Assembly: GCA_963809485.1 (NCBI GenBank)
Contig: CAWEJX010000016.1
Span: forward strand, 32,001 to 96,000
Source: an uncultured Acidobacteriota bacterium
Lineage (GTDB): Bacteria; Acidobacteriota; UBA6911
Direction: 5' to 3'
Length of the DNA: 64,000 nucleotides
The notes under the pieces are model-generated. The model was not told the DNA's origin. It saw only the letters and a list, made by a program, of their open reading frames with translations, and searched no databases. The translations under genes were made by a program, and so were the position numbers. Of this stretch, positions 1,783 to 14,739 are shown piece after piece. How positions within the stretch are numbered: position 1 is the stretch's first letter; every line of letters begins with the position of its first letter.

Positions 1783-2514
1783 TTATGCGTCGAGCTGAAT
1801 CTGCATGCAGAGATTCATGGCCGGAGTGACCTCCCCGAAGATTGCCATCATCGACTCAACCAGGTCCACTCCCGAGGAGGATTGAACCTCTTTTTCCGGC
1901 ATCGGATAATAAACCTGGAAACCCGCCCAGGAAGCTGCCGGAGCGTCTTCAAGGACCTTCTTCAGCTTTGCCATGCTGGGGAAATTGTTTTTTTTGAATT
2001 CCCCCATGCTGTCCCAGCCCGTGGCAGCCTCCACTATAAAACCTTCCTTAAAAACCAGCCGTTTAAGCTCCCGCGCCATGGCACCTGCGGGTTTCAAAGA
2101 CCCAAGCAGCCGGTGCCAGTCATAGTCCGGTTTTATTTCGGCTTTTGGAAAATCAGGCGGGGCCTGAAGAAATCCGCGCTCGACAGAGAAACCGCATCTA
2201 AAAAGCCTCTCTTCCGTGTCCACCGTGAGAAAGAACTTCGAGCACCCAAAGCTGACCTTTGAGGAAACCGGCTTGGCATCGCGGTTGGCGCGGGGCAAAA
2301 AGCCGATCCACTGCCAGTAGACGCCGCGGCCGTAGCGTTCCGTTACGAAAGGCTGCTGATACCGTGCCTCCAGGGCCAGCTTAAGGATGCGCGTGATCCG
2401 CTGGTTGTCCTCAAGGTTGCCGACGTGTATGCCTCTCTGAAAATCGAGATACTCCGGCTTGAACCCGATCGCAGTCCGCGGAAAAGCCTTCATTACCTGA
2501 ATCTTTGCTGTCAT
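1783..2514 (-). CDS. Hypothetical protein (~243 aa)
   Basis: Long ORF with protein-like composition, co-oriented with neighbours; start placed at ATG 2514 because the longer ORF runs into a repeat. Confidence 0.7.
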   Translation of the reverse strand: MTAKIQVMKAFPRTAIGFKPEYLDFQRGIHVGNLEDNQRITRILKLALEARYQQPFVTERYGRGVYWQWIGFLPRANRDAKPVSSKVSFGCSKFFLTVDTEERLFRCGFSVERGFLQAPPDFPKAEIKPDYDWHRLLGSLKPAGAMARELKRLVFKEGFIVEAATGWDSMGEFKKNNFPSMAKLKKVLEDAPAASWAGFQVYYPMPEKEVQSSSGVDLVESMMAIFGEVTPAMNLCMQIQLDA

Positions 2515-2682
2515 AGAGTGTTTAGGATAGCACGTTTGCTCCATCGGGAAAAATGTCACGAATGGCCGGACTTCCTCTGGGTGCCCGTCCATAAATCTTA
2601 ACGCTGACGAACGCTGAAAAAATTGCGAATAAATACCATTTTCTCAGCAGACAGTCTCTGGACACCGGTCCACTGAAAACAA

Positions 2683-3372
2683 CTATAATATTAGCGGTTT
2701 GGGGATTGAGTTGGGTTGGTCCGAGCCCAGGGTAAGCACGTATCCCTGCAAGCTGCGCCACCAGCCGCAAAATTTCCGGGAGGATTCCAGGCAACGCCCG
2801 CTCCAGGCATTCCATTGGTCTTCCCTCGTCTCGGGATCGATAAGCACGCTGACACTGCGCGTATCCCGCCGCAATCCTTCCCGCAATATTTTGAGTATCG
2901 TTTCCTTGGCGCTCCAGATGAGATTAACAGTCAGCTGCCGGTCCACTGCAGGAGTCTGCTTCACATAGGATATCTCTTCGGCCGTAAAGTAGTCCTCGAC
3001 GAGCTCCACCTCGCGCGGCTCCATCCATTCCAGGTCGCAACCGACAGCAAGCCCGGCCGGGCCCACGACGCAAAGGCCCATATCCCGGCTGTGGCTGATA
3101 GATATGGAGACTCCACCGGGTCCATCTTTCCAGAAGACTTCGGGAGAGCCGTCAGACGCGGCTCGAATCTCAAGCGACGGCAGAGATGACGCGTCTTTGC
3201 CCCCATAGCCACAAATAGCCTGCTTGGCCGTCCAGCGACCCAGCCTCCAGTCGTTGCGCCGTTTCGGGAAACGCAGACCTTCGAGAATCTTGCGCTCTCC
3301 TTCGCTCAGCCAGCGGTCATACTCGGGCACATCTTTCTGGATTTGAATAAGCCAATGGAGACTTGTAGTCAT
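2683..3372 (-). CDS. Sfp-type 4'-phosphopantetheinyl transferase
   Basis: SISISHS, VGCDLE, WSAKE motifs; directly downstream of the PKS. Confidence 0.93.
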   Translation of the reverse strand: MTTSLHWLIQIQKDVPEYDRWLSEGERKILEGLRFPKRRNDWRLGRWTAKQAICGYGGKDASSLPSLEIRAASDGSPEVFWKDGPGGVSISISHSRDMGLCVVGPAGLAVGCDLEWMEPREVELVEDYFTAEEISYVKQTPAVDRQLTVNLIWSAKETILKILREGLRRDTRSVSVLIDPETREDQWNAWSGRCLESSRKFCGWWRSLQGYVLTLGSDQPNSIPKPLIL

Positions 3373-3373
3373 G

Positions 3374-3436
3374 GATTCGACATTCGAGATTCGGGATTTA
3401 TAAAAATTTTTAAATCCCGAATCTCGAAATGAATTC
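3374..3436. repeat. Heptamer-repeat hairpin between PKS and PPTase
   Basis: ttcgagattcgggattta ... taaatcccgaatctcgaa perfect inverted repeat built from (g/c)attcg(a/g) units. Confidence 0.8.
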
Positions 3437-6400
3437 TACGCTTTTAGGGCGAGTGCGATCGGGTCAACCAGGTCCTGCTGAATCGGGTCGGGCAGATCCA
3501 TGGTCCGGTAACCCTGCAAGGTCAAATATACGTTCCCCTTTTCGTCGACGATTTTTGCGTCGCAGGCTCCGTCCGGTTTCGGAAGGACTATTGAATAGAA
3601 TTCCGCATTCTCCGCGTTCTCCGGTGCGGACAACAACTTCAAACTCCCGACAGAAAAGGGCAAGCCCAGGCGGGACTGAAGCCCAAGGCGGGACAGACTG
3701 CCCGTCTGGAAGCACAGTTCGACGAACCGCGGAGACGCGAATACGGGCAATTCCGAAGGCATGTGGTTTGCCGGCAGGTTTGCCGCAAATTTGCCAATCA
3801 CGCTGTCTCCCGACCGCCACGCACTATCAATCACCTGGTACGCCGGCCCGTGGAAAAACACCCGGTAAATCTGATCTGCGCCAACTTTCTCCGCCTTTTC
3901 CGGCAAAGGCTTCCGGCTGTCTTTCTCAGCCTGCGCATTGCCGGTAGTCAGCCGCACACGCGCCGTAAAGTGAGTCGTGATCTCCGGCTCCGCTTGTCCG
4001 TGCAGCGTGCGGGCCCCGAGCAGCCTGCATTCCGCGACGATATCTTCCTTGTCCGCTCGGAAAAACGCGTGGACCGTCAGACTCCTCGGCTGGCCGCGAT
4101 AGAATTTGAACGGCGTAAGAAAATTTATATCCTCTATGGCGCCGATGCTGCGTTCCGGGAAAAGGAACTTCGCCGCTTCAGCCATAGCCTCGATGCCCAT
4201 GACTCCGGGCAGAACCGGCGTCATGCTGATCTGGTGATCATACAGGAACGGCTGCTTCGCCGGATCGAACGAGGATTCGACGGTCAAACCGCCGTACACT
4301 CCCATCCCCAGGACCTCGCCGGTCATAATGCCCCGGTTGCGCAACAAGGGATCGAGAGGTCCGCCGGCGCTGGTATCCAGGCCGCCCTGAGGATCGAACT
4401 CCTTGACCAGGATCCCCAGTTTCCGGCCAATAACCAGTTCTCCGCTTGTGCCCGCAATCAGTTCCCGGCGGATAACCGGTATGCCGGCTTCAGGCGGCAG
4501 CATATCGATTCCGGCCTGTTTCATAATGGCCGGGATTGAGCCTCTGGCCGCCATCCCGATGCCGCTCCACGCGGTCCAGTCGATGGCGATGCCGCGGGTG
4601 GACGGGCGGGAGGACCGGAAATTGGAAATGCACTTGCACAGCAGGTCGTTTGCGCTGCTGTAGTCGGTCTGCCCGGAGTTGCCGAAACGGCCCGCTACAG
4701 AGCTGAAGACCACGGCAGCGCCGACGGGCATGCCGCCTATGCCGGACATCAGGTTGAACCAGCCGTCGCTCTTGACATCAAAGACCAGGTCGAACTCGCC
4801 CGGCTTTTTGTCGGGCAGCATATGGCTGATTTCCACCCCTGCGGCGTGCAGCAAGACATCGATGCGTCCGTGCCGCTCCGAGATCTCTTTCACAACCCGT
4901 GCGACAGAAGCCGGATCCAGCAGATCGAGACTGTAGTAATAAGCAGTGCCGCCGGCGTTGCGGACAGACTGGATTGCCGTGAGAGCCGCTTTGGAGCGCT
5001 CGAGAGACGCGAGTTCCCTGTCGACCATCGCGGGAGTGGCCCGTTCGCCGCGCAGCTTGAGCCGTTCGAAAATATCCCGTTTCAGGCTTTCCCTGTCCGT
5101 GTTCAGCCGCGCCAGGTCGCTGTTGCGGGCATCCGGTTCAGGCGTCAGATCGAGCAGGTAGAATATTCCGCCGGAGGCTGCTGCAAGATCCGCCGTAATC
5201 GCCGAAACGATGCTTCCGGCAGCTCCTGTAACCAGGAAAACGGTTTCCTCATCCAGCTTCACTGCAGGTTCTCCTGCGGCCGCCGCCTGCTCCTTCAATC
5301 CGATGGTCCAGCGCTGAGCATCTTTATATCCGACCTCCACGACACCGGGATCGCGCAGAGTTTCATCAATCAGCAGATCGGCGAGCGCGCTGGTTTTGCG
5401 GCTTGGCTCGAAATCGACGACTTTCACCGTCGCATCGGGCTTTTCACGCTTGAAAGCTTTGGTAAAGCCCGTTACGGCGCCTCCCAGCGGGTCTGCTGCA
5501 CCGGCATCGTCATAGCCGTGCAGCCCGCCAAGGCGCGTTGCCGACACGAGGAAGGTTCCCGCCGGCCCGACCTGATCATACAGGGCCTGCATGACGCTAA
5601 ACAGCAGCTTCGCCCGTACCCTGGTCGCTTCGCGCCACTGGGCCAGGCTCATGGCGGACACTTCACCCTGGCTGTCGAGAGCCGGGAGCCAGTACACACC
5701 CTGGATCGCGCCTTCAGCTTTCCAGCTTTCGAGATACCTGGCCAGAAACTTCGCGTCCGGCACGCCGTCAATCACCAGCGATTGGACGCCCAGCTTCTCC
5801 AGCCTGGCTGCAAGAGCTTTTCCGACCCCGCCCTGATCCGGCATGATGATGACGCGGCTTCCGGATTTCAAAGCTACGTCGGTGGATTTGCACAGCGATA
5901 ACGCCGGCCTCAGTTGCGGCACCGGTATCCGCCGCGGAACCGAGTTGGCGGCCTCCATGCTGCCTGCAATCACAGCCGGCGCCGCCTCGGCCCGCGCAAC
6001 CGCCGCAGGTTTGGACTCGGCCTGTGCTGCGGCTCCGCCCTTTTTCAGTTCCGGCTTGCGGTCATAGACAAACTGGATCGTGTGGGCCAGCGTCGGGAAA
6101 TCGCGCAGCTTCAGGTTGTCCTCGCGCGGGATATCGTAAGCGGCGCGTATGGCGGCAAACATCTCCGCCTGTTTGACGGTGTCAATTCCAAGGTCCGCCT
6201 CCAGATCCAGATCGAGGTCGAGCATATCGGGCGGATACCCGGTTTTCTCGGCGATGATCCGCAGGACAGTATCTTTGACAGAATCCCCTGCTGACCCCGC
6301 CGCCGGAGCAGGCCCTGCCTCAATAGCGGATGGTCCAGGCTCAGCGGCCGGTGTCGCTTTCTGAGCTTGAGCAACTGCTCCCGTGGCTGCCGCTTTCAGA

Positions 6401-9400
6401 TCCGGCCGGCGGTCGTAAACAAACTGGATCGTGTGGGCCAGAGTCGGGAAATCCCGCAGCTTGAGATTGTCTTCGCGCGGGATATCGTAAGCGGCGCGTA
6501 TGGCGGCGAACATCTCCGCCTGTTTGACCGTGTCGATTCCAAGGTCGGCCTCCAGATCAAGGTCGAGGTCAAGCATATCGGGCGGATACCCGGTCTTCTC
6601 GGCAATGATCTGCAAGACAGTTTCTTTTACCGAATCTTTTGAAGCTTCAACCGCAGAAGCGGGCACCTGTGCACTTTGGGAGGATTCAGGCACAGCGGCT
6701 GCCGGAATTGCGTTGGGAGCCTGGGCTGCTGCCGCGGAGGCGGCCAGCTTTAAATCCGGCCTGCGGTCGTAGACAAATTGTATGGCGTGAGCCAGTGTTG
6801 GAAAGTCGCGCAATTTCAGGTTGTCTTCACGCGGAATATCATAGGCCGCGCGAATGGCAGCAAACATTTCGGCCTGTTTCACCGTATCGATACCCAGGTC
6901 GGCCTCCAGATCGAGATCGAGATCGAGCATGTCGGTGGGATAACCGGTTTTTTCCGAAATGATCTGCATGACCTGAACCTGCACATCGTCAAGCATCCGT
7001 GCAGCAGGTGAAACAGCGGCGGATTCCACTGTTTTGGTTTCCGCTCGAAGCTCGGCCTGGAGACCTGCGACGGCATGTTGCGGCGCAGGCTCTGGCGAGG
7101 GTACAGACGACTTCGCGGCCTGCAGAGAGTTTGAGGCGCCGTTTTCCCTCCAGTCTGTCGGGCCCTGGTCTTTGGCACGCAATGTGCGCTGGACGATTTC
7201 AAGCTCAGGCGCCTCGTAACCCGTAAGGCGCTTCAGCCAGCTGTTCCAGGCTGCCGGGTCCTCAATGCGATAGCCGTAACCGAGAGCCGAGGGAGGCTGT
7301 CTCTTTCCATCGGGCGCAGGCGTCCATCGCATCAGGGTCATGGAAATTTGCGAACCGAAGCCTGCGCCCAGCCGCAGCGCATAGCGCATCGGCTGGTATC
7401 CTCCCCTGGACAGGTTCAGAGTGCCCAGTTCGGGGTCCACCTCCTTGAAGTTGGGAACGGGCGGAACGATCCCGGTCTCGAGCATTTTGACCGACACCAC
7501 ATCCTCGATGCCGACGGCCATCGGATGGCCGGTGGCGCCTTTCGTGTTGGCGACCAGAATCCGATCCGTGGCCTCTTTGAAAACGTGCCGCAGGGCGAAC
7601 ACTTCCGCGGAAGCGCTTCCTCCGCGGGCCGGAGTGTAGGTCTCGTGGGAAACGAAGACTGTTTCCGGAGCAATCTGGAACCGGTTAAGGCCCCATTCAG
7701 CTTCGGCATTGGCGATCAGCTTTTCCATGACATGCCGGATGTGGCTGACGTCGAGCCGAGTACCATGATACGCGCTGTTGGCGACCACGGAACCCAAGAC
7801 CTGGCAGATCGGGCGGATGCCGCGCTCGCGCGCAGCTTCCAGGCTTTCGAGCACGACAGCCGACGCACCCATCCCAATGAGCAGACCATGGCGCCTGCGG
7901 TCGAAAGGCGTTGCCGCGTCTTCCACCCTCTCGTCGGTCGCCGCGGATCCGGAAGCCAGGAAGCCCGAGCCGAACCAGCCCAACAGGTTGTCGGAAGTAA
8001 TGTCGTCGGCGGAAATAATGATGACACGGCGGCAGCGGCCGGTTCGTATCCAGTCGCTGGCCAGGCCGACAGCCTGCGTGCCGCTCGAGCAGGCGCCGTT
8101 GGTGGAGGTGTTCGGGCCGCGGGCGCCGATGTATTCGGCAAATTGCGAGTGGCCCATGGAAAGCACCCGGAAGAGGAACCTGCGGTCGAAATGATAGGTA
8201 TTCGCCTCGATTTCCTTGCTCAGAGCCTCGATGCGCCGCTCGATTTCGGCGGCGATGGCTGTGTCGCGTCCGGCCTGCAAGGCCAGGCTGCGCAGGCTGT
8301 CGAGTTCCGCCAGACGTTCGCGGCGGATGCGCTCCTGGTAGAAGCCCGAAATAATTTCGGCATAGGCGTCGTAACCGGGGAAAGCGGATGTGAAAAGTAT
8401 TCCGGTGTCATCCCGTATCGCATCCGGGAGCATCCATCGATCGGGGAGTTTGGTCCCCTTGGTGGTTGTCTTGTAGTGCATGACCAGGGGAATTCCGGCG
8501 TCGCGCAACGCATCGATCCCGGCGCCTATCGCCAGCTTGGTCACGCGATCGAGCGCGGGCAGCCGGTCTTCGGGAAAACCGAAATCGCGCACGAGGTCGA
8601 GGTCTCTGGAACGGGCAGCGAGCTTGATCACATCATCCAGGTGGTTGATGGATTCGAATCTTCCTTCACCGCCTTCCGTCTTGACCAGACGCGTGATGTT
8701 CTTCTCCACCATAGCCTCTCGCAGCCGCATGGGAATAGGCTCGATAAACACATCCCCGCGCAACATGCGTTCGACATTGGTATCGTCGAAAACGCGGTCG
8801 ACCCCAGGCAATCCCAGCGCGGCGCCGGTAACGCATATATCCACAGGGGCCTGCGAACGCTTGCCTCCCGAATAAATCTGGAATCCCCGGTCGAGGAATT
8901 CGGTAAACAGCTTCCCCAGTTCCACGTACCGGTCGGATCCGGCTTCGACAGGACGAGAGGCTTCCTGAGCCCTTTCGGCCCTATAGGCCGGCACGGAAGG
9001 CGCCGGCGCGGGCATGAAAGCCTGCGGGGCCGGGATCGATTCCCGGATTTCAGCTGTGGGCTTTTTTCCCTGTACTTTTGCCGCAATGCCCACACCCAGG
9101 CCCGCGGCATACAGGCCGCACAGGGCGAGATTGAGCGAGGCCGCCTCGCCGATTCTCGGATGGTTGGTGAACAAAGCGACAACGCCCTCGCGTTCGCCCA
9201 GAACATCCTCAACAAAACCGTAGAGGATTCTCTTGGGGCCCAGTTCGACAAAGATGCGCGCTCCGGCATCATACAGAGTATTGAGCCCCTTCACGAATTG
9301 GACCGGGGAATACACCTGCCTCCCCAGCAGGCCAATCATCTCCGGCACGACACCCGGGCCCATGGGATAAAAATCCCCAAGCACGTTGGAGATGATGGGG

Positions 9401-11883
9401 ATTTCCGGGGGACGCAGGTTCATGGTCCCGAGAATTGTGGCCAGGGATTCGCCCGCAGGCGCCACAATCCGCGTGTGGAAGGCGTGGCTGACCTGCAGCG
9501 GGCGCGCGACATAACCGCCATCGCGCACTGCCGCCATCGCTTTCTCGACGCCCGTCGTCGATCCGCCAATTACGGCCTCTTTGGTACTGTTGATGTTGGC
9601 GATGACGACATAGTCGTCGACCGTGGCCAGTATTTTTTCGATTTTGTCGATCGGCCCGAAGACGGCGGCCATCATGCCGTTGTCGTCCAGGGCGCATCGG
9701 GTCATTTCGTTACCGCGAGCGCTGACGGCTTTCAGGGCTTCCTCGAAGGATATGGCGCCGCACGCCACAAGCGCACCGTATTCGCCTAAGCTGTGCCCCA
9801 TGACCATGTCCGGGGCGATGCCGTAAGCGTAGAGCATGCGGGCAAGAGCGGTCTCGGTCGCCAGGACTGCAGGCTGGGTGATCGCCGTCTGCTTCAGTCC
9901 GTCTTCGGCAGCCGCGAGCGCCGCTTCATCCGATTTGTCGAGATAAATGCAGCTCGTCAGAGTTCTGCCCAGCAGAGGTTCCATGACGCGATCCGCTTCT
10001 TCATAGACTTTGGTCACAATCGGTTCGGTCGCCCGGAGCGTCTGGAGCATGTTTACGTATTGAGAACCCTGGCCGGTGAAAAGGAACGCCACCTTGGGGA
10101 CAGGGCCTTTGCCCAGGAAAATTCCTTTGGGCCGCAACGCTTTCCACCTTCCGGCCTGGTTCTCCTCGAATGCTTTCAGCGCTTTTCCGGCTTTGTCGGC
10201 CAGCTCTGCCGCGTTTCCATAATCGATGGCCACGCGCACATTGGACTGCAGATCGGACTCGAGGGGAGGCGCCGGTTCCGGTGCTTTCCCGGCCGCAGCC
10301 TCCCGGGCCACGGCTTTCAGCCGGGCGATCAGTGCAGCTTCCGACTCCGCACCCAATACGAAAGCTCCGCGCAGAGGCATCTTGAGATTTGCGGACGGTT
10401 TCGCGCCGAATGAGCCTTCGGGAACCGATACGGCCGCCTTGCGCTCATCCGCTATCCTTCCGGGGACATATTCCTCAAGGACAACGTGGAAGTTGGTTCC
10501 ACCGAATCCAAAGGCGCTGACTGCGGCCCGGCGTACATTCCCGGGCTTCACGTCCCAAGGCCTTAGCTCGGTATTAACGTAAAAAGGAGATGCGGAAAAA
10601 TCAAAATTGGGATTGGGCTGATTGAAGTTCAGGCTTGGCGGCAGTTCCCGCTTGTTCAGGGCGAAGGCCGCCTTCAGGATGCCGGCGGCTCCGGCTGCGC
10701 CTTTTAGATGTCCGACATTTGATTTCACCGATCCCAGTGCGATGGAACCTACGGGAAGTCCGATGTCTTTGAGGGCTTCCGACAGGCTTTCCAGTTCCGC
10801 GACATCCCCGACAGGGGTTGATGTGCCGTGCCCTTCGATCAGGTCTCCCTGGGCCGGGACGACACCGGCATTCTGCCAGGCTCGTCGGATGCAAAGCCTC
10901 TGTCCAACCGGATTGGGCGCCGTAATGCCTTTCCCCTTTCCGTCACTCGATCCCCCGATACCGCGTATCACAGCGTAGATCCTGTCACTGTCGCGTTCGG
11001 CATCGGCCAGTCGTTTCAACAGAAATACAACGGCTCCTTCGCCCATCACGAAACCGTCCGCGCCATCCGCGTAAGGCCGGGATCCCTTGCCGGAAAGGGC
11101 GCCGATTTTGCAGAACTTCACAAAGGTGGAAGGGCTCATGTTGGTGTCGATCCCGCCCGTCAGGACTGCGTCGTAGTCGCTGCCGCCCAATCCCTCGATA
11201 GCGGCGCTCATGGCCGCCATGGCAGATGCGCAGGCAGCGTCGGCGACGAAATTCGGGCCCTTGAAGTCGTACAGCGCGGCGATACGGCCGGCAACAATAT
11301 TGGCCAGCTCCCCGGGCATTGTGTCCTCCGTGATGGGAGGGGTCTTGCGGCGGACGCCTTCGTGCAGCTGTTCAAGGATTGCCTGGCGAACCGGAAGCGG
11401 CAAGGAAGAGTAGCTGGCAGATTTGATCAGCTCTTCGGCAAATTCGGGAAAGAGGATGCGGGCGGCGGAATACAGGTGCGTATCGCCGGCCATGGCGTTA
11501 CCCAGGATCACGGCTGTGCGTTCAGGATTCAGCGGGCGGCCCGGATACCCGTAGTCGCTCAAAGCCTCGCGGGCCGTAACCACGGCCCATTTCTGCGTAA
11601 GGTCCATCGCCAGGCTGACGCGCGGAGGAATCGGCAGCTTCCACTTCAGCGGATCCCATTCCCAGTCACGCACCCAGCCGCCGATTTTTGAATAGGTCTT
11701 GTCCGGCGCTTTAGGATCCGGGTCGTAATAGAGGTTCGGATCCCAACGATCGCGTGAGACTTCGGTGATGCTATATCGGCCCTCTCTGATGTTCTGCCAG
11801 AATTTTGGCGCATTGGCCGCGTCCGGCATCAGGGCTCCTACGCCGACAATCGCAACAGCTTTATCAGCCGCAGATACTCTCAT
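3436..11883 (-). CDS. Type I PKS / PUFA-synthase(PfaA)-like multidomain synthase: KS-AT-KS-ACPx3-KR-DH, 2815 aa
   Basis: KS1 DAACAS/EGHGTST/NVGHL; AT GHSLGE and HAFH; KS2 NGACSS/SHETYT/TGHPM; three [11 protein letters not shown] repeats; KR VTGAAG and [22 protein letters not shown]. Confidence 0.95.
   Translation of the reverse strand: [2815 protein letters not shown]
6045..6990 (-). repeat. Three tandem ACP-coding repeats within the PKS, separated by Ala/Pro-rich linkers
   Basis: Near-identical ~80-aa units ([55 protein letters not shown]). Confidence 0.95.
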
Positions 11884-11934: not shown

Positions 11935-13593
11935 TTATTTCTTATCCCGTCCGTACAGGACGTCCGCCACATAATCCAGGTCCTGCACCAGTCCTGCCTG
12001 TGCAAGAAGCAATTGCTGGGAAAGTAATTTCTGGTTAAGCTTCATCGCATCTTGTTCGGGCAAGAGCCCGCCGATCCATCGGACGCCTTCGGCCGCTACT
12101 TTCATAGCAGCGTCCCGGGTGGAAATCCGGCTCAACGCGGCAAGATTTTCGGCAGTGAAACGGGCATGGGCTTTGGCGTTCACCTCTCCCCTGGCTGCGC
12201 GAGCCGCCCGGCGGGCAAGGCTTGCGGCGCCTTCGGCGTATGCGATCCATTCGCCCAGCCGGAAGAGGATGTGTTGATGCCGCGTAAGCCGCTGCGCGCG
12301 GGCCACCTCGAGCAGCTCCGCAAGGGCATGAAGCGCGTAGCTGACGGTCTGAGCGCCCACACGCTCGTTCTGCCGGTGCAGATCTTCCATCCCCCGCGCC
12401 ATAGCGTGATAAAACTGGCCGTGCGTTTTGAGATGAGATTGCCAGCGGTCACGGCTGATCGTCATCTCCATGATTTCAGACGTTCCTTCATAAATTGTCG
12501 TGATTCGGGCATCGCGCTTGATCTTTTCCACCATATACTCGCGCGTGTAGCCATAGCCGCCGAGCGCCTGAATGGAAGCGTCGGCCGCGAGGTTCCCCGC
12601 TTCGGTGGCGAGATATTTTGCGATGGCGCCTTCGGTATTCAGGTTGCCCTCGTCGCTGTCGATGCGTTCGGCCGTCTCCTCGATAAAGGAACGCGCGGTT
12701 TCCAGGCGTGCGGCGTGGGGCACGATGAGTTTGTGAGTGTATCCCTGTTTTTCGGAGAGCGGCGTTCCTCCCTGGATGCGCCCCATGGAATACGGGATGG
12801 CTCGGTCCAAAGCCGCCCAGCCCGATCCCAGACCGAAAGCGGCAACCATGAGACGGGTGTAGCCGAAAACCAGCTGGGCCTGGATCAGGCCCTGGCCTTC
12901 CACGCCTCCCAGCAGGCGGTCGGCGTCGACGTACACACCTTCCAGCGATACCGTAGCGGTATTGCTGGCGCGTATCCCGTGCTTATCCTCCGGCTTCCCG
13001 TGGCTCAGCCCGGGAGTGTCCTTTTCGACCACAAACCAGCTGGGGCCGCCGGGCGCCTTGGCCAGAACGCTGTACAGGTCGGCAAAACCGCCGTTGCTGA
13101 TCCACTGCTTGTTTCCCGTTATCTTGTACCCGGCCACTTTGCCGTCTTTTGTTACAGGATCAGCCACCGTGCGCAGAGCCGCAAGGTCGCTGCCCGCTTC
13201 CGGCTCGGTAGCGCCATAGGCCATAAGCAGCCCTTCCTGGCCGATGCGCGTCATCCAGAGTTTCTTCTGCTCGTGGGTGCCGCCGAAGATAATCGGGTCG
13301 CTGCCCAGGAATGTCGCCAGGACCCCTGTGGCGACACCCAAATCGACGCGGGCCAGTTCTTCGCAGACCCTGTAGACGTCAAAAGCGCCTCCCCCCATAC
13401 CGTCGAACTCTTCCGGGATGAAAAGGAGCTGAATGCCAAGTCCGGCACCGCACATTTCCCGCACGATATCCGAGGGAAATTCTTCGGTTGCGTCCAGTTC
13501 GAGGATCTTCTTTTCCGGCAGCCTGGCGGCGGTGAAGTCCTTGAGCGATTCCAGCGTCAAATCGAGAGTCTCTTTATCCAATCCTTTGTGCAT
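11935..13593 (-). CDS. Acyl-CoA dehydrogenase family protein with C-terminal helical extension
   Basis: [34 protein letters not shown]. Confidence 0.93.
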
Positions 13594-13677: not shown

Positions 13678-14739
13678 CTACGCGCGCAGCAGCAGCGCCC
13701 CCCAGTTCATGCCTGCCCCGAATGCGACCATGAGCACCAGATCGCCTTTATGAATCCGGCCGGTGCGCGTGGCCTCGTCCCAGAGCAGAGGGATGGTCGC
13801 CGCCGTGGTATTCCCGTATTTGTGAATGTTGTGGATCACCTTTTCTTCCGGTATGTTCAGCATTTTCTGCACGCGTTCGTTGATGCGTTTGTTGGCCTGG
13901 TGCATCAGAACCAAAGATATGTTCTCCAGTTTCAGGTTGTTGCGTTCGAGGATCTCCTTTGTGACGGCCGCCATACTGTTTGCGGCGTTTCGGAATACGT
14001 ACATGCCGTTCATCACAGGTATATGATCCCCTCGTAGAAGCTGGCCCGAATCCACGTAGGGTCTATGTTTGAATCCGGCGCCCGGCACGTAGATCCTGTC
14101 GTATTCGCTCCCGTCGGTGTGCAGGATGCAGTCCAGAACGCCGCGGTCCTCCTCTTCGGCCTTGAGGACGACGGCGGCTCCCGCATCCCCGAACAGCACG
14201 GTCACGTTCCGGAACCGGGTGTTCCATTCATACTCCTCTGGCGTCGGGGGAACCGCCGTTTTCCCGTACATATAGCTGTAGTTTTCCGCAGTCCACGGCA
14301 TGAAGCCGGTATGCGTTTCGGCCCCGACCACCAGCACCGCTTTTGCCACACCTGAGCGTATCTGAGCATCCGCCAGTTGGATGCCGTACAGAAAGCCTGC
14401 GCATTGCTGCCGGATGTCGAAACAAGGAATGTCCCGGATTTCCAGCTTGGACTGGAGAAGCCCCCCGCACCCCGGGAAAAAATAATCGGGGGTCATGGTT
14501 GCGAAAACAATCATGTCCAGGTCGTTTTTGTCGATGCCGGCAGAGTTTATAGCCTCGCTTGCCGCCGCCACGCCAAGATCGGATGTTGAGATGCCTTCGT
14601 CGACATAGTACCGGGTCTCCACGCCGCTGCGCTCCCTGATCCAGTCGTCTCCGGCATCCATAATCCTGGACAGCATGCCGTTGGTTACCTTGTTGGGTGG
14701 GACGCAAGCGCCGCTCCCGACTATTACGGCTCGCACCAT
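13678..14739 (-). CDS. fabH: 3-oxoacyl-ACP synthase III (FabH family)
   Basis: QQCAGF, LFGDAG, HQAN, YGNT: Cys-His-Asn triad intact. Confidence 0.9.
   Translation of the reverse strand: MVRAVIVGSGACVPPNKVTNGMLSRIMDAGDDWIRERSGVETRYYVDEGISTSDLGVAAASEAINSAGIDKNDLDMIVFATMTPDYFFPGCGGLLQSKLEIRDIPCFDIRQQCAGFLYGIQLADAQIRSGVAKAVLVVGAETHTGFMPWTAENYSYMYGKTAVPPTPEEYEWNTRFRNVTVLFGDAGAAVVLKAEEEDRGVLDCILHTDGSEYDRIYVPGAGFKHRPYVDSGQLLRGDHIPVMNGMYVFRNAANSMAAVTKEILERNNLKLENISLVLMHQANKRINERVQKMLNIPEEKVIHNIHKYGNTTAATIPLLWDEATRTGRIHKGDLVLMVAFGAGMNWGALLLRA

What the first reader, a model, noticed from the sequence alone, without database searches (positions are those of the whole stretch)
6045..6990. All three ACP domains of the PKS have Thr in place of the phosphopantetheine-accepting Ser, next to a dedicated PPTase
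Seen: each ACP reads [14 protein letters not shown] (Thr1667 ACG 6883-6885, Thr1785 ACG 6529-6531, Thr1902 ACC 6178-6180). Neighbouring codons differ synonymously between copies, so this is retained sequence rather than a single base-call error. Established: PfaA-type ACPs read LGIDS and the Ser is the essentially invariant 4'-phosphopantetheine site. No stand-alone ACP is visible in the cluster, yet KS, AT, KR and DH motifs look intact and a PPTase gene follows directly. Inference: a threonine-phosphopantetheinylated carrier with a cognate Thr-accepting PPTase, i.e. a possibly orthogonal carrier system. I cannot confirm from here whether this has been described.
Basis: partly seen in the sequence, partly recalled or inferred. 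Interest (0 to 1): 0.88.

Follow-up and report, generated by a model that had tools for sequence, protein, structure and literature searches.

The report
Threonine-site carrier domains in lipid synthase
A large fatty-acid/polyketide synthase found in many bacterial phyla carries threonine where all textbook carrier proteins have the cofactor-accepting serine, and it travels with its own cofactor-loading enzyme, which points to an undescribed threonine-linked form of a universal protein modification.

Summary
The 2815-aa ORF 3436-11883(-) is KS-AT-KS-ACP3-KR-DH. Each ACP reads [13 protein letters not shown], with Thr 1667, 1785 and 1902 at the stated codons.

The Thr aligns with the phosphopantetheine Ser of solved ACPs and starts helix II of a confident ACP model.

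It is a family trait, not a strain quirk or base-call error:
- Of 932 near-full ACP domains from 270 homologues, 919 have Thr, 10 Ser and 3 another residue. No other column exceeds 20% Ser.
- In a search seeded with the KS2 domain, which does not depend on the ACPs, the count was Thr 321 and Ser 12.
- The rare Ser forms nest inside Thr clades. One protein mixes Ser, Thr and Ser ACPs.

An Sfp-type PPTase lies downstream in 61 of 65 related loci. In a 301-genome phylum sample its clade occurs only in genomes with Thr-type ACPs.

The gene cluster is the uncharacterised "Type R" secondary-lipid synthase of Shulse & Allen 2011. The passages I read do not mention threonine. E. coli ACP S36T is the standard non-modifiable mutant.

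Best reading, at confidence 0.68: Thr is the real Ppant acceptor. Strict orthogonality is doubtful. No biochemical evidence exists.

The parts
3436..11883 (-). Type R secondary-lipid synthase gene, 2815 aa: KS-AT-KS-ACP3-KR-DH
   Evidence: architecture matches the Type R description in PMC3098273
10444..11862 (-). KS1 domain (aa 8-480)
   Evidence: Pfam PF00109/PF02801/PF16197
9196..10086 (-). Acyltransferase domain (aa 600-896), GHSLGE motif
   Evidence: Pfam PF00698 3.2e-43; motif read
7204..8931 (-). Second KS-like domain (aa 985-1560; called 'CLF' in the 2011 paper) that keeps a Cys at the nucleophile position
   Evidence: second PF00109/PF02801 stretch; query; (weak local alignment, E 0.12)
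6748..7005 (-). ACP1 (aa 1627-1712), Thr1667 at the attachment position
   Evidence: hmmsearch with the A1 profile
6883..6885 (-). Thr1667 codon ACG
6391..6651 (-). ACP2 (aa 1745-1831), Thr1785; aligned with the Ppant Ser of PDB ACPs
6529..6531 (-). Thr1785 codon ACG
6040..6303 (-). ACP3 (aa 1861-1948), Thr1902
6178..6180 (-). Thr1902 codon ACC
4564..5007 (-). KR domain core (aa 2293-2440)
   Evidence: Pfam PF08659 5e-21
3478..4290 (-). PKS-type dehydratase (aa 2532-2802)
   Evidence: Pfam PF21089 + PF14765
2683..3372 (-). Sfp-type 4'-phosphopantetheinyl transferase, 229 aa; the only Sfp-type PPTase in the genome
11935..13593 (-). 552-aa acyl-CoA-dehydrogenase-like gene, conserved upstream partner (candidate enoyl reductase)
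   Evidence: Pfam; upstream in 55 of 59 loci with room
13678..14739 (-). FabH-like KAS III; adjacent here but not a conserved part of the system
   Evidence: found in only 4 of 80 loci (L004, L046, L048 and the partial L048-type hit)

Best explanation
The three tandem domains are true acyl carrier domains of an iterative type-I fatty-acid/polyketide synthase, the 'Type R' secondary-lipid synthase. In them the 4'-phosphopantetheine arm is attached to a threonine hydroxyl at the N-terminus of helix II, not to the canonical serine. The co-encoded Sfp-type PPTase loads the arm from CoA using the ordinary Mg2+/Glu mechanism. KS1, AT, KS2, KR and DH, and probably the upstream ACAD-like reductase, then work on the thioester as in PUFA-type synthases.

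Shown: the sequence, its position in the fold, family-wide conservation, exchange of Thr only with Ser, and co-distribution with the PPTase.

Inferred: that Thr is actually modified, by this PPTase.
For: 1. Position. The Thr aligns with the Ppant Ser of PigH and of type II ACPs. In an AlphaFold model (pLDDT 87) helix II begins at that Thr. The model matches AcpP-type ACPs with TM-scores of 0.83-0.88 normalised by target length.

2. Selection.
- 919 of 932 near-full ACP domains from 270 proteins have Thr, 10 have Ser and 3 another residue. No other column has more than 20% Ser.
- A search seeded with KS2, independent of the ACPs, gave Thr 321, Ser 12 and 14 gaps or other residues in 122 of 150 proteins; 28 had no ACP hit.
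- All four Thr codons are used (ACG 137, ACC 123, ACA 8, ACT 7).

3. Only hydroxyl residues alternate.
- Ser-bearing forms are scattered tips inside Thr clades on the KS2 tree. A minimum of 4 state changes is needed over 84 labelled rows.
- P0221 carries DSIKAAE / DTVKQAE / DSIKIAE in one chain.

4. A PPTase gene is retained.
- It lies downstream in 61 of 65 loci that reach the DH domain.
- In a 301-genome phylum sample, 16 of 18 genomes with Thr-type ACPs have a PPTase scoring 188 bits or more against the clade profile. None of the other 283 exceeds 116 bits.

5. The PPTase keeps the catalytic set. G111, D113, E115 and K161 are invariant; W153, K156 and E157 nearly so. The profile aligns to Sfp 1qr0/4mrt at 4e-11.

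6. Complex prediction of PPTase + CoA + Mg + ACP.
- Score 0.73, best control 0.00. That mark was reached by 58 of 80 solved complexes and 2 of 110 mismatched pairs.
- The three runs agree in at least 93% of contacts, and the partner pLDDT is at least 79.
- Contacts include E157-T41 and L167-T41.
- Sfp-PCP and AcpS-ACP complexes are solved, so this pass may reflect likeness only.

7. KS, AT, KR and DH look intact, and there is no other carrier on the contig.
Against: - There is no mass-spectrometric or structural evidence for a Thr-linked Ppant, here or in anything I could find.
- E. coli ACP S36T 'cannot be post-translationally modified by 4'-PP' and is non-functional (PMC3340395, passages read). 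So Thr is not generally tolerated, at least by AcpS-type enzymes.
- The PPTase shows no obvious active-site novelty that would explain Thr acceptance.
- The and samples were seeded with words or patterns containing DTVKQ and are biased towards Thr. Only the samples are free of that bias.
- The genomes compared are related to one another, so the co-distribution counts overstate independence.
Confidence: 0.68

Rival explanations
1. The Thr domains are permanently apo 'pseudo-carriers' with a scaffolding or docking role. The catalytic domains act on acyl groups carried in trans by the housekeeping Ser-ACP (AcpP) or on CoA thioesters. The PPTase serves the other, Ser-type carriers of the cell.
For: E. 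coli S36T is unmodifiable. The genome has an AcpP (LGADSLD) and four multidomain Ser carriers that need a PPTase. Degenerate ACP-like domains without Ser or Thr do occur in distant relatives.
Against: - Thr is 98.6% conserved, and the only recurring alternative is Ser. A scaffold would not need a hydroxyl at exactly this position.
- Tandem arrays of 3-8 near-identical copies are the throughput signature of working carriers.
- The acidic helix-II recognition surface ([9 protein letters not shown].D) is invariant.
- The PPTase clade tracks the Thr-type synthase and not carriers in general: 0 of 283 genomes without Thr-type ACPs carry it.
Confidence: 0.12
2. Ppant is attached to another residue of the domain or linker, for example a Ser near helix I such as the DSV noted by the first reader, and the Thr is only structural.
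For: ACP2 and ACP3 of the window have a Ser in 'DSVK' before helix I.
Against: No other column of 932 domains has Ser above 20%. ACP1 of the window lacks that Ser. No Ser is invariant in A1. The predicted complex places T41, not the N-terminal region, against catalytic E157 (subject to the likeness caveat).
Confidence: 0.03
3. The Thr carries a different prosthetic group or a direct O-acyl ester, attached by an enzyme other than the PPTase.
For: None directly. It would be one way to account for the unusual residue.
Against: No other transferase is conserved in the cluster. The conserved set is ACAD, PKS, PPTase and sometimes ACC. KS-catalysed Claisen chemistry and a multi-domain reach need a long thiol arm (established PKS/FAS knowledge). 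Ser variants carry the otherwise identical motif.
Confidence: 0.05
4. Sequencing or assembly artefact, or a strain-private mutation.
For: The genome is a draft with 7.32% estimated contamination.
Against: Three copies carry two different Thr codons. The same residue is seen in 17 of 17 fetched relatives in the phylum sample, in 275 of 275 motifs in 80 loci from at least eight phyla, and in 321 of 347 domain hits in the unbiased protein set.
Confidence: 0.01

Closest known systems
Type R secondary-lipid (FAS/PKS) gene cluster of Shulse & Allen 2011 (PMC3098273; passages read)
   Same: One pfaA homologue with KS-MAT-'CLF'-ACP(3-6)-KR, followed by a PPTase gene. Found in Acidobacteria (Koribacter, Solibacter), Chloroflexi (Roseiflexus) and Elusimicrobia. 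Product unknown. The window's gene has this architecture and the same taxonomic neighbourhood.
   Different: The paper's text has 0 occurrences of 'threonine', so the Thr site is not noted there. The passages I read do not list a DH domain, the conserved upstream ACAD-like gene or the multidomain ACC seen here. Its supplementary File S1 could not be opened.
PfaA of PUFA synthases (TIGR02813) and its tandem ACPs
   Same: KS-AT...tandem ACP...KR-DH layout. The ACP N-terminal half is almost identical (KTGYPxxML.[10 protein letters not shown]). An Sfp-type PPTase (PfaE) accompanies the genes.
   Different: The PfaA-type helix II reads DSIKRVEIL with Ser (10 of 10 from the same phylum). Here it reads DTVKQAEMF with Thr. 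There is an extra KS-like domain between AT and the ACPs, and no pfaB/C/D partners. The TIGR02813 score of 945.9 is below the 1010.1 cut-off.
Sfp-type (group II) PPTases: Sfp, HetI, PfaE, AASDHPPT
   Same: Two pseudo-symmetric halves (PF17837 + PF01648), about 230 aa, with the GxDxE and WxxKE(S/A)xxK motifs conserved.
   Different: A separate clade. The HetI equivalog scores 42 bits against a cut-off of 370, and single-sequence phmmer reaches only AcpS in the PDB. Within the phylum sample the clade is restricted to genomes with Thr-type ACPs. The presumed substrate hydroxyl is on Thr.
E. coli ACP S36T mutant
   Same: The same Ser-to-Thr replacement at the Ppant position of an ACP fold.
   Different: The engineered mutant is reported as unmodifiable and non-functional (PMC3340395) and is used as an apo mimic (PMC13343975). 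Here Thr is the natural, selected state of a multi-phylum family with its own PPTase.

Membership tests
Acyl carrier / PP-binding domain (Pfam PF00550) | Sequence match above the curated cut-off | tested here: met
   65.5 bits against a cut-off of 20.8 for the protein. The three genomic hits score 27.5-30.9 bits, all over the cut-off.
Acyl carrier / PP-binding domain (Pfam PF00550) | Four-helix ACP fold with the attachment residue at the N-terminus of helix II | tested here: met
   AF2 model with pLDDT 87; helix II starts at residue 41, the Thr. Foldseek TM-scores of 0.83-0.88 (normalised by target length) to AcpP-type ACPs.
Acyl carrier / PP-binding domain (Pfam PF00550) | Serine in the (D/G)xDS(L/I/V) motif as Ppant acceptor (the motif is recalled; the alignments are) | tested here: not met
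   Thr in all three domains and in 919 of 932 family domains. These are therefore homologues that probably work like ACPs, not canonical members by the Ser criterion.
Acyl carrier / PP-binding domain (Pfam PF00550) | Actual 4'-phosphopantetheinylation | not testable with these tools
   Needs mass spectrometry of the expressed protein.
Type R secondary-lipid synthase cluster (Shulse & Allen 2011) | A single pfaA homologue with KS-MAT-CLF-ACP(3-6)-KR | tested here: met
   KS, AT, second KS-like domain, 3 ACPs and KR, plus DH; description read.
Type R secondary-lipid synthase cluster (Shulse & Allen 2011) | A PPTase gene downstream | tested here: met
   ORF 2683-3372, 63 nt after the PKS stop codon; present in 61 of 65 related loci.
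PfaA, PUFA synthase subunit (TIGR02813) | Score above the curated cut-off and pfaBCD partners | tested here: not met
   945.9 against 1010.1 bits, and only aa 7-909 in the best stretch. No PfaB/C/D-like genes in the window flanks or the loci.
Sfp-type PPTase | PF01648 plus the N-terminal 4PPT_N half, with Mg-binding Asp/Glu and catalytic Glu/Lys motifs | tested here: met
   PF01648 8.2e-19. PF17837 scores 26.4 bits, just under its cut-off of 27. D113, E115 and K161 are invariant and E157 nearly so. Profile hit to Sfp at 4e-11.
HetI equivalog (NF042922) | Score above 370 bits | tested here: not met
   42.4 bits.

The most novel reading that the evidence does not exclude
O-(4'-phosphopantetheinyl)-threonine is a natural, previously undescribed post-translational modification. 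It is used by a whole multi-phylum family of lipid synthases and installed by a dedicated Sfp-type PPTase clade. The Thr makes these carriers invisible to AcpS-type PPTases, and possibly to ACP phosphodiesterase, so the secondary-lipid synthase is insulated from the housekeeping fatty-acid machinery. That would be a ready-made orthogonal carrier/PPTase pair.
Probability: 0.45. Interest if true: 0.9.

Novelty: new variant of a known kind. Interest (0 to 1): 0.78.

Why it matters
The Ser acceptor of carrier proteins is among the most invariant features in fatty-acid, polyketide and non-ribosomal peptide biochemistry. Ser-to-Thr is used in the laboratory to make dead, apo carriers.

This family is large: 7270 database proteins at E <= 1e-3 and at least 593 confirmed stretches in species-representative genomes of Acidobacteriota, Chloroflexota, Gemmatimonadota, Myxococcota, Actinomycetota, Elusimicrobiota and others. 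If it works with Thr, three things follow:
- A new protein modification would be defined.
- The substrate rules for PPTases would need revision, as would motif-based annotation and BGC-mining rules that require Ser.
- A naturally evolved Thr-carrier/PPTase pair would be available to test as an orthogonal labelling or pathway-insulation tool.

It also gives a concrete handle on the still uncharacterised Type R lipid synthase, which is common in soil bacteria.

Tried and rejected
- **Artefact or private mutation:** rejected.
- **An alternative conserved Ser in the domain:** looked for and not found.
- **A distinctive active-site change in the PPTase that would explain Thr acceptance:** none was evident from the consensus or from the invariant columns. 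Single-sequence phmmer of the PPTase against the PDB reached only AcpS. The profile reached Sfp and AASDHPPT.
- **The 269-aa ORF 1783-2592:** no Pfam or NCBIfam family and no homologue in any of the 80 loci, so it is not part of the system.
- **FabH:** found next to the cluster in few loci only, so it is not a core part.
- **Genomic context of the Ser-bearing relatives (P0184, P0221, P0246, P0253):** Their PPTases were therefore not compared.
- **Literature:** ten full-text searches gave no paper describing Thr as a Ppant acceptor.
  - Searches returned 0 papers.
  - The hits were seen as listings only and looked unrelated.
  - Three of the eight listed hits were checked by passage. They concern other threonines.
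  - Subscription-only papers are not covered, so 'not in print' is not established.
- **Supplement File S1 of PMC3098273:** could not be opened.
- **The search of earlier findings:** was closed.
- **Complex prediction:** passed. I count it only as likeness to solved PPTase-carrier complexes.

Full report
**What is there.** The window's minus strand holds an 8.4-kb ORF (3436-11883, 2815 aa).
- Pfam reads it as KS (aa 8-480), AT (600-896), a second KS-like domain (about 985-1560), three PP-binding domains, KR (2293-2440) and a PKS-type DH (2532-2802).
- Sixty-three bases downstream lies a 229-aa Sfp-type PPTase (2683-3372; PF01648 plus a near-cut-off PF17837 hit).
- Directly upstream lie a 552-aa acyl-CoA-dehydrogenase-like gene (11935-13593) and a FabH-like gene (13678-14739).

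**The observation.**
- Each carrier domain reads ...[34 protein letters not shown]..., with the Thr at residues 1667, 1785 and 1902.
- The 21 variable columns among the three 90-nt cores are all synonymous third positions.

**Is the Thr at the canonical site?**
- phmmer of ACP2 against PDB sequences puts the Thr exactly on the Ppant Ser of both PigH ACPs (DLGVDSI, DLGIDSV; 5y08, E 4.6e-11) and of several type II ACPs.
- An AlphaFold model built on an 11-sequence alignment (A1) has mean pLDDT 87, and helix II starts at the Thr.
- Foldseek matches the model to E. coli, B. subtilis and other ACPs with TM-scores of 0.83-0.88 normalised by target length.

**Is it a family trait?**
- A word-seeded search with the ACP region found 7270 proteins at E <= 1e-3 among 8000 candidates. 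In the 120 listed plus the query, 616 of 618 regex-defined motifs carried Thr, one Ala and one Met. That sample is biased, because its seed words include DTVKQ.
- I therefore searched 1.84 billion 50%-identity representatives with the KS2 domain alone. This gave 10,561 hits at E <= 1e-3, 672 at E <= 1e-30, and the best 150 were returned.
- Of those 150 proteins, 122 contain ACP domains detected with an HMM of A1; the other 28 showed no ACP hit. The attachment column holds Thr 321, Ser 12, a gap 9 times, and P, I, Q, D and G once each.
- Pooling all 270 proteins, 932 of 962 domain hits are near full length. Of these, 919 have Thr, 10 Ser, and M, A and P once each. No other alignment column has Ser above 20%, so there is no hidden alternative acceptor.
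The 80 kept loci come from Acidobacteriota, Gemmatimonadota, Rhodothermales, Myxococcales/Haliangiales, Chloroflexota, Leptospiraceae/Spirochaetota, Elusimicrobiota, Actinomycetota (including an Amycolatopsis isolate) and Verrucomicrobiia.
- In those loci all 275 motifs are Thr, and all four Thr codons are used. This scan is again pattern-biased.

**Ser and Thr interchange.**
- I built a KS2 tree of 101 rows: the query plus the 150 hits, keeping those with at least 450 aligned KS2 residues. Fifty rows were dropped for shorter coverage.
- On that tree the few Ser-bearing proteins are isolated tips inside well-supported Thr clades. P0253 sits with four Thr proteins (SH-aLRT 100). P0184 and P0173 sit with P0175 (100). 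P0221 sits with P0217 (99). The minimum is 4 state changes.
- P0221 carries [22 protein letters not shown] and DLGVDSIKIAE in one chain. P0184 has five DLG(I/V)DSVK domains. P0246 has ELGVDSVKQAE twice. P0246 is not in the tree because its KS2 coverage is too short.
- The position thus tolerates only the two hydroxyl residues. That is what an attachment site predicts, and a structural residue does not.
- Ten of ten lower-scoring tandem-ACP synthases fetched from the same phylum are PfaA-like and read [16 protein letters not shown]. So Thr goes with a distinct helix II (TVKQAEMF against SIKRVEIL).

**The PPTase.**
- Of the 80 loci, 65 reach the DH domain. In 61 of these a homologue of the window's PPTase lies downstream.
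- In 30 loci it lies within 1.5 kb. In 31 it follows a gene of about 5.5 kb that in L012 is an 1878-aa multidomain acetyl-CoA carboxylase.
- Four loci (L008, L027, L050, L074) show none within 6.6-7.8 kb.
- In an even sample of 301 genomes of the window's phylum, 28 match the ACP profile at E <= 1e-10.
- Eighteen of the 28 match strongly or are cut by a contig end. I fetched the best match from each of the 17 other than the window's genome, and all read G(I/V)DTVK.
- Of these 18 genomes, 16 have a PPTase scoring 188-300 bits against the clade profile A3. One (G300) has a contig-end fragment scoring 84.7 bits. One (G235, 81% complete) has none at E <= 1e-20.
- None of the other 283 genomes exceeds 116 bits.
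- In several genomes the PPTase and the PKS lie on different contigs, so the association is not only one of adjacency. Related genomes are not independent, which limits the weight of these counts.
- The clade keeps the catalytic apparatus. G111, D113, E115 and K161 are invariant; W153, K156 and E157 nearly so. The profile aligns to Sfp and AASDHPPT. I saw no obvious novel active-site residue.
- A complex prediction (PPTase alignment, CoA, Mg, ACP alignment) scored 0.73 against a best control of 0.00.
  - That mark was reached by 58 of 80 solved complexes and 2 of 110 mismatched pairs.
  - The runs agree in at least 93% of contacts, and the partner pLDDT is at least 79.
  - It places ACP Thr41 against E157 and L167, and ACP residues 35-38 against R37, R38 and R41.
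  - Complexes of this kind are solved, so this shows likeness, not binding.

**Orthogonality.**
- The window's genome (95.7% complete, 7.3% contamination) has only two PPTase genes: a 137-aa AcpS and this one.
- It also encodes an AcpP and four multidomain enzymes whose carriers have Ser: A-T-TE, two A-T-acyltransferases, and an ACP-aminotransferase.
- Together with the natural Ser/Thr mixture in P0221, this suggests that the cluster PPTase takes both residues.
- What may be insulated is the Thr carrier from AcpS-type enzymes. E. coli ACP S36T is described as not modifiable and non-functional (PMC3340395, passages) and is used as an apo mimic (PMC13343975, passages).

**What is known.**
- The gene arrangement is the 'Type R' secondary-lipid cluster of Shulse & Allen 2011: KS-MAT-CLF-ACP(3-6)-KR plus a PPTase, found in Koribacter, Solibacter, Elusimicrobium and Roseiflexus, with the product uncharacterised.
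- The word 'threonine' does not occur in the main text of that paper.
- Ten full-text searches found no report of a Thr Ppant site (passage checks).
- Subscription-only literature and supplements were out of reach, so prior description cannot be excluded. I put that at roughly one in five.

**Verdict.**
- The most likely mechanism is Ppant attachment to Thr by the co-evolving Sfp-type PPTase (confidence 0.68).
- Rivals: apo scaffold domains (0.12), another prosthetic group (0.05), another acceptor residue (0.03), artefact (0.01).
- It is a new variant of a known kind: a carrier domain in a known but uncharacterised synthase cluster. It has high specialist interest and a simple decisive experiment.

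Noticed in passing
L012:12916-18552 (and 30 further loci): In 31 of 61 related loci an 1878-aa multidomain, eukaryote-style acetyl-CoA carboxylase (BC-BCCP-ACC_central-CT) sits between the PKS and the PPTase. In L012 an Abhydrolase_3 gene follows the PPTase. The window's genome has only BC-sized hits to it. The cluster may be a self-contained malonyl-CoA supply plus synthase.
   Followed up: partly
window 11935-13593 (-): A 552-aa acyl-CoA-dehydrogenase-like gene lies upstream of the PKS in 55 of 59 loci with room. NCBIfam also matches it to carrier-protein-dependent ACADs: prolyl-PCP dehydrogenase at 4e-41 and PigA at 1e-34. It could be the missing enoyl reductase, or a desaturase acting on acyl-ACP. 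It was not found upstream in the three Elusimicrobia loci (L061, L065, L080).
   Followed up: partly
window 7204-8931 (-): The second KS-like domain, called CLF in the 2011 paper, keeps a Cys (NGACSSG) that aligns with the KS1 active-site Cys (weak, E 0.12). His-containing motifs are visible. It may be a second active ketosynthase rather than a chain-length factor.
   Followed up: partly
P0158 aa 1664-1712 and 2191-2237; P0168 aa 1834-1899; P0175 aa 1806-1867; P0184 aa 2009-2060: Distant relatives carry degenerate ACP-like domains beside the tandem array. These keep KTGYP...DLG but have neither Ser nor Thr at the site (for example DLGIEIGSLQ, DLGVKDADLQ). They may be pseudo-carriers.
   Followed up: no
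window 1783-2592 (-): A 269-aa ORF after the PPTase has no Pfam or NCBIfam family and no homologue in any of the 80 related loci. It is an orphan, or not a gene.
   Followed up: partly
window 13678-14739 (-): A FabH-type KAS III above its curated cut-off (TIGR00747, 309 against 292 bits) sits next to the cluster here and in a few other loci (L004, L046, L048) but not generally. It may be a primer-supplying accessory in this lineage.
   Followed up: no
G000 whole genome: The assembly is a draft of 21 contigs with 95.67% completeness and 7.32% contamination. Statements such as 'only two PPTases' are subject to that.
   Followed up: no
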